Virus record (IMG/VR): IMGVR_UViG_2737471848_000031
Length of the DNA stretch: 3,631 nucleotides
Direction: 5' to 3' (one strand)
Origin: a virus
Lineage: Duplodnaviria; Heunggongvirae; Uroviricota; Caudoviricetes
In this document: positions 195 to 872 of the stretch, piece by piece
Layout of the letters: every line of letters begins with the position of its first letter
Position numbering within the stretch: position 1 is the first letter of the stretch
The notes under the pieces: generated by a model
The model's database searches: none
Told to the model about the DNA's origin: nothing
The model's input: the letters and a program-made list of their open reading frames with translations, nothing else
Position numbers and translations under genes: made by a program

Positions 195-785
195 ATGACC
201 ACTTTTACCAATAGCAAACTAACAGACGAATACGTTTCAAATGCAACGTTGATTCGGCTCATTCTGTGGGCTGACCAGCACAATAGCCATTATGTTGTAG
301 CGGCTCTGCGCGAGCTACAGGAGCGCCGCAAGGCTGATAGTGCAGAACCTGTAAGCCAAACTTACAAGTTGCCAGTTAATACACCTTGCCAAGATGCGCC
401 AGCCCATATCTGGCTGCAAACGGCTGGAGTATGGCCAGAAGATGGCGAGTTAAGCGAATTAACGTGGTGCAGCCACAATCAACACCATGATGACACGCTA
501 TATGTTCGAGCTGACCTTGTGAATGGCAACTATCCGGCAACTCCGGATGGTTGGATAAGCTGTAGTGAGCGAATGCCTGAAATGGGAGAGCGACAATGCT
601 ATGTGTTAGCAGCTGACTTTAAAAACAACTACCCACCAAACATCCCCAACACTCAGGTCGGCGTATATGGCGACTGGTTTAATGATGGCAAGCCCACTTG
701 GGATGACGGTGATGGCGAAGACCTGTATCTCAAAGAGGTAACCCACTGGATGCAGCTACCAGAACCGCCGCAGGAGGTGAAATGA
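195..785 (+). CDS. Phage early-region protein with a DUF551-like C-terminal domain (196 aa); N-terminal half of unknown function
   Basis: The C-terminal segment (about nt 580-785; ...GVYGDWFNDGKPTWDDGDGEDLYLKEVTHWMQLPEPP) resembles the conserved end of DUF551 proteins common in enterobacterial prophage early regions. A Shine-Dalgarno-like motif lies 7 nt upstream of the ATG. The family call is from memory. Confidence 0.7.
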   Translation: MTTFTNSKLTDEYVSNATLIRLILWADQHNSHYVVAALRELQERRKADSAEPVSQTYKLPVNTPCQDAPAHIWLQTAGVWPEDGELSELTWCSHNQHHDDTLYVRADLVNGNYPATPDGWISCSERMPEMGERQCYVLAADFKNNYPPNIPNTQVGVYGDWFNDGKPTWDDGDGEDLYLKEVTHWMQLPEPPQEVK

Positions 786-868
786 TGAATTGGCCTGAAG
801 CATTCACCGCAGTTGGAGTTGCAATAGCGGTGGCATTTATTCTGTATTCGCTTTTCCGCTGGGGATAA
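782..868 (+). CDS. Candidate small hydrophobic membrane peptide (28 aa, MMNWPEAFTAVGVAIAVAFILYSLFRWG; 27 aa if started at ATG 785), absent from the ORF track
   Basis: A strong GGAGG motif at 773-777 sits 4-7 nt before ATG 782/785. The ATG overlaps the upstream stop (ATGA at 782-785). The stop TAA at 866-868 lies 4 nt before the next gene's ATG at 873. The peptide has a roughly 19-residue hydrophobic core consistent with one transmembrane helix. Confidence 0.35.
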   Translation: MMNWPEAFTAVGVAIAVAFILYSLFRWG

Positions 869-872
869 AGGA

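What the first reader, a model, noticed from the sequence alone, without database searches (positions are those of the whole stretch)
771..872. Unlisted 28-aa hydrophobic peptide gene, translationally coupled between two phage ORFs
A near-consensus Shine-Dalgarno motif (GGAGG, 773-777) is embedded in the last codons of the DUF551-like gene. It is optimally spaced from ATG 782/785, which opens a short ORF encoding MMNWPEAFTAVGVAIAVAFILYSLFRWG. The peptide has a single predicted transmembrane helix followed by an R-W-G tail. Its start overlaps the upstream stop (ATGA) and its stop sits 4 nt before the next ATG. Small single-helix membrane peptides in phage early operons are often host-directed effectors, such as Kil-like inhibitors or small toxins. 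It falls below the length cutoff of the ORF track.
Basis: partly seen in the sequence, partly recalled or inferred. Interest (0 to 1): 0.55.

Follow-up and report, generated by a model that had tools for sequence, protein, structure and literature searches.

The report
Unannotated conserved phage membrane micro-protein gene
A 27-28 codon reading frame squeezed between two prophage genes is a real, strongly conserved but almost never annotated gene for a tiny single-helix membrane peptide. It is carried by Shiga-toxin phages, other E. coli prophages, phage-plasmids and even virulent phages, and its function is still unknown.

Summary

Comparative evidence shows a genuine protein-coding gene.
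- I collected 55 nucleotide alleles encoding 29 peptides from prophages, phage-plasmids, the virulent phage Av-05 and a 28%-GC metagenomic element.
- W4, G12, A16, R26 and W27 are invariant while their codons vary (Arg26 uses five codons).
- dN/dS is 0.27 in this frame versus about 1 and about 3 in the other sense frames, and replacements are conservative only in the sense frame.
- In a flank-anchored, unbiased sample, 110 of 112 copies are intact.
- Sequence similarity between phages with different neighbours begins at the SD or start codon and ends at the stop codon, so SD+ORF is a self-contained mosaic cassette of about 100 bp.
- Homologues place the start at ATG 785 (27 aa).

The peptide has one moderately hydrophobic helix with Trp anchors at both ends. 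It matches no Pfam, NCBIfam, PHROG, PADLOC or PDB entry, and I found no paper mentioning it. RefSeq and GenBank records leave it unannotated.

Function is untested. The likeliest role is an accessory, early-expressed inner-membrane peptide acting on a host membrane target. A toxin-like role or an exclusion role remains possible. I class it as a new member of a known kind, of moderate interest.

The parts
773..777 (+). Shine-Dalgarno GGAGG inside the last codons of the DUF551 gene. It lies 7 nt before ATG 785 and 4 nt before ATG 782.
   Evidence: A GGAGG/AAGG/GGGGA motif is present 7-10 nt upstream of the ATG in every context. In several phages with unrelated upstream genes, similarity to the window starts at 770-773.
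782..868 (+). Small ORF of 28 codons plus TAA, encoding MMNWPEAFTAVGVAIAVAFILYSLFRWG. The probable true start is ATG 785 (27 aa).
   Evidence: There are 55 nt alleles encoding 29 peptides. dN/dS is 0.27. W4, G12, A16, R26 and W27 are invariant while their codons vary. 110 of 112 copies are intact in the unbiased sample.
783..785 (+). TGA stop of the upstream DUF551 gene, overlapping the first ATG (ATGA). This is the termination-reinitiation junction.
   Evidence: The junction is ATGA, TGA-ATG or GTGATG in all contexts examined.
195..785 (+). Upstream partner gene: DUF551 protein, 196 aa.
   Evidence: PF04448, E=3.4e-20. It is annotated as ORF5 in BP-4795. The partner differs in other phages.
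800..856 (+). Codons for the 19-residue hydrophobic core AFTAVGVAIAVAFILYSLF (residues 7-25), the predicted transmembrane helix. It is flanked by the invariant Trp4 and Arg26-Trp27.
   Evidence: Kyte-Doolittle mean is 2.28 (1.85-2.42 across variants). The approximate insertion energy is -0.9 kcal/mol (-1.9 to +1.6 across variants).
866..872 (+). TAA stop plus the 4-nt spacer AGGA before the DUF4222 ATG. This is the right-hand boundary of the mobile cassette.
   Evidence: Similarity to loci with other downstream genes ends at 864-869 in every case. One search shows at least 8 different downstream sequences starting right after the stop.
873..1115 (+). Downstream DUF4222 gene (80 aa). It has no well-spaced SD of its own and is probably reinitiated after the small ORF.
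   Evidence: PF13973, E=1.4e-16. The start contexts are TAAAGGAATG here and TAAccacATG in L015-type phages.

Best explanation
The ORF is a genuine gene for a 27-28-residue single-pass inner-membrane peptide. Its family signature is M-x-W-P-[ED]-A ... G-x3-A-x-A ... [YF]-S-x-[CF]-R-W-G-stop.

It has no promoter or terminator of its own. It is transcribed as part of the tightly packed early-left accessory operon (the 'exo-xis'/ea region) that runs towards xis and int. It is translated by ribosomes that terminate at the upstream gene's stop (ATGA overlap) and re-initiate with the help of the SD embedded in that gene's last codons. Where DUF4222 follows, the same relay probably feeds it.

Together with its SD, the ORF forms a cassette of about 100 bp that recombines between phages exactly at its own boundaries.

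Shown here: coding constraint, the conserved start, stop and SD, hydrophobic helix character, modular mobility, occasional loss, and absence from annotation and family databases.

Inferred, not shown: translation in vivo and membrane insertion. From the positive-inside rule (C-terminal Arg, and a basic tail KNVRRD in one variant) I infer an N-out/C-in orientation.

Most likely mode of action (my estimate about 0.4): the helix and its conserved interfacial caps bind a conserved host inner-membrane protein early in lytic growth and modulate it. The role would be accessory and non-essential.
For: Presence and conservation:
- blastn matches in 1650 of 5426 complete E. coli genomes, many covering only the ORF.
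- 99 phage records, 181 plasmids (mostly non-mobilizable, about 90-100 kb) and more than 500 viral contigs.

Coding constraint:
- pooled dN/dS is 0.27 in frame versus 0.97 and 2.95 in the other sense frames. Replacements are conservative in the sense frame only (mean BLOSUM62 +0.61 versus -0.60 for the wobble-sharing antisense frame). The antisense frame has no consistent start or stop.
- amino-acid identity 0.651 versus 0.534 +/- 0.035 in column shuffles (reached in 4/5000). Similarity was reached in 0/5000.
- 55 alleles encode 29 peptides. W4, G12, A16, R26 and W27 are invariant. Arg26 is coded by CGC, CGA, CGT, CGG and AGA.
- natural length variants differ by whole codons.

Unbiased intactness:
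- 110 of 112 flank-anchored copies are intact.

Distant members:
- Virulent phage Av-05, behind an unrelated gene.
- A 28%-GC contig using AT-rich codons.

Module edges:
- similarity spans 784-869 or 770/772-864/869.
- upstream and downstream junction types combine freely.

Coupling:
- ATGA overlap plus SD everywhere.
- no promoter- or terminator-like site in 1-1600.

Membrane character:
-.

Not described:
- unannotated in records; no family, defence or PDB hit; protein collections; literature.
Against: - There is no direct evidence of translation or membrane localisation, because no ribosome-profiling or proteomic data could be consulted for this locus. Hücker 2017 screened only ORFs of 30 aa or more.
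- dN/dS cannot by itself separate the sense frame from the wobble-sharing antisense frame. The call rests on replacement conservativeness and on the start, stop and SD.
- Many sampled copies are near-clonal, so counts of intact copies overstate the number of independent observations.
- Hydrophobicity is only moderate (approximate insertion energy -1.9 to +1.6 kcal/mol, using scale values recalled from memory).
- Conserved positions do not define a single helix face (1894/10000 permutations), so a specific helix-packing interface is not demonstrated.
- Disrupted alleles exist.
- No partner protein is indicated by gene neighbourhood, because the neighbours vary and are soluble.
Confidence: 0.7

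Rival explanations
1. A membrane-damaging peptide that works like a type I toxin or a holin-like accessory. It would oligomerise in the inner membrane and dissipate the proton-motive force, helping host shut-off or tuning lysis timing after induction.
For: Its size, single helix and very short termini match the general description of small membrane toxins (review PMC12648545). An invariant G-x3-A plus an Ala ladder could support self-association. It is frequently found immediately upstream of hok/sok loci and other TA modules in the same accessory region.
Against: No antisense RNA gene, promoter-like site or Rfam hit was found. The SD is not sequestered, since the junction RNA is no more stable than shuffles (z=+1.2). 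The helix has no charged or polar pore-lining residues. The gene sits in an operon with a strong SD and translational coupling, which is not how toxic peptides are usually kept silent. There is no Pfam HOK_GEF or other toxin family match.
Confidence: 0.15
2. An early-expressed exclusion or counter-defence factor. From the inner membrane it would either block DNA entry of superinfecting phages (working like T4 Imm, P22 SieA or HK97 gp15) or neutralise a membrane-bound host defence effector.
For: It occurs in early or accessory gene blocks of temperate, phage-plasmid and virulent phages alike. The surrounding region is a mosaic of accessory, host-interaction genes: MazG-like pyrophosphohydrolase, DksA/TraR-like protein, methyltransferase and TA modules. 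Cassette-like exchange and occasional loss are typical of arms-race genes. This last point is inference.
Against: There is no own promoter, so it would not be expressed from a repressed prophage as classical exclusion morons are. The sequence is highly conserved rather than diversifying (dN/dS 0.27). There is no PADLOC or other family link. Nothing here tests it directly.
Confidence: 0.12
3. A pure translational relay. Under this view, only the act of translating the short ORF matters, because it delivers ribosomes from the upstream gene to DUF4222, and the peptide itself is functionless.
For: The DUF4222 start has no properly spaced SD (TAAAGGAATG here, TAAccacATG in L015-type phages). The whole block is a chain of near-abutting ORFs.
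Against: The amino-acid sequence is constrained. The ORF is conserved where nothing is coupled downstream: before hok loci, before opposite-strand TA genes, before host genes and in Av-05. A relay would not need invariant Trp, Gly, Ala and Arg residues.
Confidence: 0.05
4. Not a translated gene at all. The 84-87 nt would instead be conserved as a recombination boundary, as an RNA element, or because of an antisense gene.
For: The antisense frame that shares wobble positions is open and has the same dN/dS (0.23). One GenBank record (POCJ13) annotates an antisense ORF here. The segment coincides with mosaic junctions.
Against: Antisense replacements are non-conservative (mean BLOSUM62 -0.60). 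The antisense frame has no conserved start or stop. There is no Rfam hit and no stable structure. A 28%-GC homologue keeps the peptide while changing most codons. Arg26 is coded by two different codon families. Length variants differ by whole codons.
Confidence: 0.03

Closest known systems
Small regulatory inner-membrane proteins of enterobacteria (e.g. MgrB, AcrZ, KdpF, CydX, MgtS, PmrR; reviewed in PMC12648545)
   Same: Fewer than 50 residues, one transmembrane helix and very short termini. They are routinely missed by annotation and act, where known, by binding a larger membrane protein. This is the working model adopted here.
   Different: There is no sequence relationship (no Pfam or NCBIfam hit). 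This peptide is phage-borne and not chromosomal. It is not encoded next to a membrane-protein partner, since its neighbours vary and are soluble. No target is known.
Type I toxins (Hok/Gef, TisB, IbsC, DinQ, ZorO)
   Same: Small hydrophobic single-helix peptides, often on prophages. In many phages this ORF lies directly upstream of a hok/sok locus.
   Different: There is no antitoxin RNA, no own promoter and no SD-sequestering leader. It is translationally coupled inside an operon. The helix is uncharged. There is no HOK_GEF match.
Phage lambda orf28 and lambda Kil / Rac KilR (small products of the early-left operon)
   Same: Same kind of genomic address: small non-essential genes in the pL-side accessory region of lambdoid phages. 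lambda orf28 is also 28 codons.
   Different: lambda orf28 is an acidic, non-hydrophobic peptide (MEEEFEEFEEHPQD...) with no similarity. Kil and KilR are larger cytoplasmic FtsZ inhibitors, not transmembrane peptides (established knowledge; annotated as such). An HMM of the family finds nothing in lambda 22-36.5 kb or in the K-12 prophages Rac, Qin and DLP12 (best E 0.39).
Early phage membrane proteins that exclude superinfecting DNA (T4 Imm, P22 SieA, HK97 gp15)
   Same: Phage-encoded inner-membrane proteins in accessory regions. This is a plausible analogous role.
   Different: Those proteins are several-fold larger, are unrelated in sequence, and in temperate phages are expressed from the prophage. 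This comparison rests on my own knowledge only and was not tested here.

Membership tests
Protein-coding gene (versus chance ORF) | Purifying selection at the amino-acid level in this frame and not in the alternatives | tested here: met
   dN/dS is 0.27 versus 0.97 and 2.95 in the other sense frames. Sense replacements are conservative and antisense ones are not. Column shuffles reached the observed identity in 4/5000 and the observed similarity in 0/5000. Invariant residues use multiple codons.
Protein-coding gene (versus chance ORF) | Conserved start codon, ribosome-binding site and stop position across divergent relatives | tested here: met
   An ATG with GGAGG/AAGG/GGGGA 7-10 nt upstream, and a stop directly after R-W-[GRW], are found in 47+15 junction contexts. 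110 of 112 copies are intact in the flank-anchored sample.
Protein-coding gene (versus chance ORF) | Direct evidence of translation (ribosome footprints, tagged product, peptide detection) | not testable with these tools
   No translatome data were accessible for this locus. Hücker 2017 considered only ORFs of 30 aa or more. The peptide strings are absent from all searchable papers and from the held supplements.
Translationally coupled gene pair (termination-reinitiation) | Stop of the upstream gene overlaps or abuts the start, with the SD inside the upstream coding sequence | tested here: met
   ATGA lies at 782-785 and GGAGG at 773-777. The junction is kept behind DUF551, MazG-DUF551 and four unrelated upstream genes.
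Translationally coupled gene pair (termination-reinitiation) | Downstream translation depends on upstream translation | not testable with these tools
   This needs a premature-stop experiment. The junction RNA shows no occluding structure (z=+1.2), so independent initiation at the SD is also possible.
Single-pass small membrane protein | One hydrophobic segment long enough to span the bilayer, with interfacial aromatic or basic residues | tested here: met
   The 19-residue core has Kyte-Doolittle 1.85-2.42 in all variants. Approximate insertion energy is -1.9 to +1.6 kcal/mol. Invariant Trp4 and Arg26-Trp27 lie 22-23 residues apart.
Single-pass small membrane protein | Membrane localisation and defined topology | not testable with these tools
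   The N-out/C-in orientation is inferred only from the positive-inside rule and from the basic tail of variant P0009.
Type I toxin-antitoxin toxin | Antisense or divergent small RNA antitoxin, and own promoter | tested here: not met
   There are no promoter-like sites on either strand in 1-1600 (0 found versus 2.8 expected) and no Rfam match. The consensus scan is crude, so this is evidence against, not proof.
Type I toxin-antitoxin toxin | Translation kept off by a structured leader that sequesters the SD | tested here: not met
   The SD lies in the upstream coding sequence. The fold of 740-900 is no more stable than shuffles.
Type I toxin-antitoxin toxin | Toxicity on expression | not testable with these tools
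   This requires an induction experiment.
Phage moron | Autonomous transcription unit (own promoter and terminator) expressed from the repressed prophage | tested here: not met
   There is no promoter or terminator in 1-1600. The ORF is embedded in a chain of abutting ORFs. It is mobile like a moron but is not an independent transcription unit.
Known protein families (Pfam, NCBIfam, PHROGs, PADLOC, PDB) | Significant profile match | tested here: not met
   There are no hits at or near threshold. The best were DUF883_C (E 0.07, 13 bits versus a cutoff of 27) and phrog_35838 (E 0.085).

The most novel reading that the evidence does not exclude
The WPEAF...RWG peptide may be a widely shared phage effector that docks onto one conserved bacterial inner-membrane machine, for example a defence effector, a DNA-entry route, a protease or a divisome component. 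It would travel as a self-contained 'micro-cassette' of about 100 bp (SD+ORF) that plugs into any translationally coupled operon. That would explain why it is found with identical boundaries in Stx phages, phage-plasmids, virulent myoviruses and an AT-rich (28% GC) element from an unidentified source. This would make it one of the smallest autonomous mobile functional units in phage genomes.
Probability: 0.3. Interest if true: 0.65.

Novelty: new member of a known kind. Interest (0 to 1): 0.45.

Why it matters
The peptide is present in up to about 30% of complete E. coli genomes, including the medically important Stx1 and Stx2 converting phages (BP-4795, Sp15/VT1-Sakai, 933W, ArgO145). Yet it is missing from RefSeq and GenBank annotation, from all four family libraries searched and from the searchable literature.

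It lies in the exo-xis/ea accessory region. Deletion or overexpression of that region is reported to change lysogenisation and Stx-prophage induction (PMC3824215, PMC10789677). Experiments that delete or clone 'the region' have therefore been manipulating an unrecognised membrane peptide.

It also gives a clean, testable example of how a gene-sized unit of only about 100 bp is shuffled between phages exactly at its own start and stop. It could be added directly to annotation pipelines as a small-protein model.

Tried and rejected
- **lambda orf28:** I recalled this as a possible homologue. It has the same length and the same kind of operon, but it is an acidic, unrelated peptide.
- **Named homologue in curated E. 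coli K-12 prophages:** an HMM against all stop-to-stop segments of 15 aa or more in Rac, Qin, DLP12 and lambda gave nothing (best E 0.39). e14 and the CP4 elements were not searched.
- **Antisense gene:** rejected on non-conservative replacements and on the lack of a consistent start or stop, even though dN/dS is the same as in the sense frame.
- **RNA element, terminator or promoter:** no Rfam hit, no consensus sites and no excess folding energy.
- **Programmed -1 frameshift fusing DUF551 to the helix:** reading the sequence, I saw no slippery X_XXY_YYZ heptamer in 713-785, and the upstream partner is often not DUF551.
- **Conserved helix face (packing interface):** the conservation moment is not significant (1894/10000), so no claim is made.
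- **Literature and supplements:** searches found nothing on the peptide.
- **Word-indexed protein search:** it returned only a 30-aa fragment mis-named 'DUF551, partial'.
- **Structure prediction:** not run. The peptide is below the 30-aa single-sequence limit, the family alignment contains sequences the tool would not accept, and a lone helix would add nothing.
- **My upstream-gene clustering heuristic:** it mis-assigned Av-05's partner to the DUF551 cluster. Direct BLASTP shows the two are unrelated.
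Full report
**1. What is in the window**

The window is the integrase-proximal end of a lambdoid prophage. On the + strand there is a chain of nearly abutting ORFs:
- a 63-aa ORF (1-192);
- a DUF551 protein (195-785);
- the 28-codon ORF in question (782-868);
- a DUF4222 protein (873-1115);
- a 48-aa ORF (1119-1265);
- a DUF1233 excisionase (1274-1510);
- a tyrosine integrase (1566-2879);
- an N-terminally truncated host DUF72 (yecE-type) gene (2906-3631).

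Bases 600-1120 are 100% identical to Stx1-phage BP-4795. The window as a whole is only 83% identical to that phage, so it is a mosaic relative with a different xis/int end.

There is no sigma-70-like promoter or intrinsic terminator on either strand in 1-1600. This fits one long early-left transcript.

**2. The observation**

All the stated coordinates are right: GGAGG at 773-777, ATG at 782 and 785, the DUF551 stop TGA at 783-785 (ATGA overlap), TAA at 866-868 and the next ATG at 873.

On its own, a 28-codon ORF means little, because the window has 63 ORFs of 20 aa or more. The question therefore had to be settled by comparison with other sequences.

**3. It is unannotated almost everywhere**

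The slot is empty in the following records:
- BP-4795 (both GenBank and RefSeq records), phi467, 933W, ArgO145, Stx2 II and the Stx1 yecE phages;
- Av-05;
- every RefSeq E. coli chromosome or plasmid I opened.

Two records put something there, and both are wrong. POCJ13 annotates an antisense 42-aa ORF across a copy that carries a nonsense codon. vB_EcoS-689R5 annotates a 36-aa CDS that is the out-of-frame product of a 1-nt-deletion allele.

The word-indexed search of 5.8 billion protein clusters returned only one 30-aa fragment, mis-named 'DUF551, partial'. An exhaustive phmmer scan of 1.84 billion representatives returned 14 hits. These are family members that happen to be 29 aa or longer, or stop-loss and upstream-extended calls.

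Pfam, NCBIfam, PHROGs, PADLOC and PDB have no matching family.

No searchable paper contains the peptide strings. Two small-ORF surveys do not list it in their held supplements. One of them considered only ORFs of 30 aa or more.

**4. It is widespread**

- blastn of 760-900 finds matches in 1650 of 5426 complete E. coli genomes, with up to 7 places per genome. Many of these matches cover only query 25-110, which is the ORF itself.
- tblastn finds it in 99 phage records.
- It is on 181 plasmids, almost all non-mobilizable replicons of about 90-100 kb in Escherichia, Salmonella and Klebsiella, which look like phage-plasmids.
- More than 500 IMG/VR contigs carry it.
- In the one-genome-per-species collection the credible hits are Escherichia and Shigella. 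The hits in other genera are on very short contigs that look like contamination.

**5. It is under protein-level selection**

From about 300 loci I recovered 55 distinct nucleotide alleles encoding 29 peptides.

W4, G12, A16, R26 and W27 never change, although their codons do. Arg26 uses CGC, CGA, CGT, CGG and AGA. Gly12 and Ala16 use three codons each.

Pooled Nei-Gojobori dN/dS is 0.27 in the ORF's frame, against 0.97 and 2.95 in the other two sense frames.

The antisense frame that shares wobble positions necessarily shows the same ratio (0.23). However, its replacements are non-conservative (mean BLOSUM62 -0.60, versus +0.61 in the sense frame), and it has no consistent start or stop from one context to the next.

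In six divergent lineages (mean nucleotide identity 0.745), amino-acid identity is 0.651. Column shuffles give 0.534 +/- 0.035 and reached the observed identity in 4/5000 trials. They reached the observed BLOSUM similarity in 0/5000.

Natural length variants differ by whole codons: +4 residues in the helix, +3 residues at the N-terminus, and short C-terminal tails.

Two distant members are especially telling:
- The virulent Vequintavirinae phage Av-05 keeps MTWPEAFTTVGVVMAVAFAVYSVCRWG behind a gene unrelated to DUF551.
- A 28%-GC metagenomic contig, next to PP2C- and kinase-like genes and with no DNA match to any deposited phage, encodes MNITNWPEAFTYIGCAFAIAIIFYSMFRWG with AT-rich codons.

**6. 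An unbiased check of intactness**

Peptide-pattern searches favour intact copies. I therefore anchored on flanking DNA only, using GCAGGAGGTGAA, then 80-102 nt, then ATGTTCGC.

Of 120 matches, 112 belong to this family. Of those, 110 have an intact ORF ending at the same stop, and 2 are frameshifted.

Other disrupted alleles seen elsewhere:
- POCJ13: TGG to TAG at the Trp;
- the 689R5/L013 1-nt deletion;
- two stop-loss extensions.

The gene is therefore dispensable but normally maintained. Many copies are near-clonal, so these counts overstate the number of independent observations.

**7. It is a self-contained mosaic cassette**

When the window is compared with loci whose neighbours differ, similarity spans 784-869 (four loci) or 770/772-864/869 (933W, L090, Av-05). 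The right edge falls at 864-869 in every locus that is not followed by DUF4222.

At least eight unrelated sequences begin directly after the stop: DUF4222, hok/sok loci, an opposite-strand TA pair, host genes and others.

Upstream partners include DUF551 proteins of several architectures, a MazG-like pyrophosphohydrolase-DUF551 fusion, and at least four proteins with no DUF551.

Upstream and downstream junction types occur in free combination.

In every case the start overlaps or abuts the upstream stop (ATGA, TGA-ATG or GTGATG), and a GGAGG-like motif lies 7-10 nt upstream.

By this alignment the homologous start in the window is ATG 785, which lies 7 nt after GGAGG and gives a 27-aa product. 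ATG 782 is 4 nt from the SD and is GTG in some alleles.

**8. What the peptide looks like**

It has:
- a short N-terminal cap, M-x-W-P-[ED]-A;
- a 19-residue core rich in Ala, Val, Ile and Gly (Kyte-Doolittle 1.85-2.42; approximate insertion energy -1.9 to +1.6 kcal/mol, using scale values recalled from memory);
- an invariant G-x3-A followed by an Ala ladder;
- a C-terminal [YF]-S-x-[CF]-R-W-G.

Two invariant Trp residues 23 positions apart would sit at the two membrane interfaces. This is inference.

The single invariant Arg at the C-terminus, and the basic tail KNVRRD in one variant, suggest an N-out/C-in orientation by the positive-inside rule. This is also inference.

Conserved positions do not concentrate on one helix face beyond chance, so I make no claim about a packing surface.

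**9. How it most likely works**

Shown here: it is a constrained coding sequence, always set up for translational coupling, inside an operon with no signals of its own.

Inferred: ribosomes finishing the upstream gene re-initiate at the ATG with the help of the embedded SD. Where DUF4222 follows, its start has no usable SD (TAAAGGAATG here, TAAccacATG elsewhere), so the small ORF probably relays ribosomes onward.

The peptide sequence is conserved even where nothing is coupled downstream, so the relay cannot be the whole story.

My best estimate is an accessory inner-membrane peptide made early after induction or infection that acts on a conserved host membrane component (about 0.4).

A type I-toxin-like depolarising role (about 0.15) is disfavoured by the lack of an antitoxin RNA, of an own promoter and of SD sequestration, and by the uncharged helix.

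An exclusion or counter-defence role (about 0.12) is compatible with the accessory-island context but is untested.

A pure relay (about 0.05) or a non-gene (about 0.03) is unlikely.

**10. Comparison with what is known**

It works like the small single-pass membrane proteins reviewed in PMC12648545, but it is not homologous to any of them.

It fails the defining features of type I toxins and of morons that could be tested here.

The K-12 prophages Rac, Qin and DLP12 and lambda have no homologue.

**11. Verdict**

It is a new, undescribed family of a known kind: a phage small membrane protein missed by annotation.

It stands out for its breadth, its strong conservation and its exact cassette boundaries. 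Its function is unknown and there is no direct evidence of expression yet. I rate the interest as moderate (0.45).

Noticed in passing
window 1-3631 (especially 1120-2879 and 2906-3631): The window is not BP-4795 itself. It is 100% identical over 600-1120 but only 83% identical over 1-2536, and it has a different ORF3/xis/int end. The right end is a host DUF72 (yecE-type) ORF whose match starts at Pfam profile position 22. The prophage therefore appears to sit inside a yecE-type gene, as in the 'PPyecE' and Stx1a yecE phages that are 92% identical over 600-1115.
   Followed up: partly
L100 (Shigella phage POCJ13, KJ603229) 701-834: The POCJ13 copy of the small ORF has a nonsense codon at the invariant Trp (ATGACCTAGCCT). 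The record instead annotates a 42-aa ORF on the opposite strand (AHZ95239.1), which is probably spurious.
   Followed up: partly
L101 (vB_EcoS-689R5, ON470583) 699-809; L013 1606-1683: The only record that annotates a CDS in this slot (URC08898.1, 36 aa) is annotating the out-of-frame product of an allele with a 1-nt deletion just after the ATG. The same allele turns up on a short contig binned as Segatella copri, which is likely contamination.
   Followed up: yes
window 744-787; L004 (933W) 768-811 and 1186-1285; L090: The junction sequence (...CCGCAGGAGGTGAAnnnATGA) recurs as a boundary element. In 933W and L090 the DUF551 3' end plus SD (94-95% identical to window 744-787) is followed by a different 131-aa gene. 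The small ORF comes after that gene, behind a second, degenerate copy of the junction (agaaggtgaatcaATGA). The inserted gene is thus bracketed by two copies of the junction, which suggests junction-mediated module insertion.
   Followed up: partly
window 866-875; L015 about 2582-2592: The DUF4222 gene has no properly spaced SD (TAAAGGAATG here, TAAccacATG in L015-type phages). Its translation probably depends on ribosomes terminating at the small ORF.
   Followed up: no
L308 (ENA ERZ27247121 contig k141_117111) 2501-2593: A family member lies on a 28%-GC metagenomic contig in a dense operon next to PP2C-like and protein-kinase-like genes. The contig has no DNA match in the phage collection. 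This implies that the family extends well beyond enterobacterial phages.
   Followed up: partly
L004 (933W) 1201-1650; L007; L101; L307: In many phages the small ORF lies 100-150 nt upstream of a hok/sok-type locus (hokW/sokW, hokD). The last bases of the ORF may therefore overlap the upstream promoter region of the hok mRNA. I did not examine this.
   Followed up: no
window 1119-1265: The 48-codon GTG-start ORF here corresponds to BP-4795 ORF3, which is annotated as 44 aa. It matches phrog_3871 over its full 48 residues (E=1.5e-33), so the longer form with the GTG start abutting the DUF4222 stop (1115/1119) is probably right for this phage.
   Followed up: no
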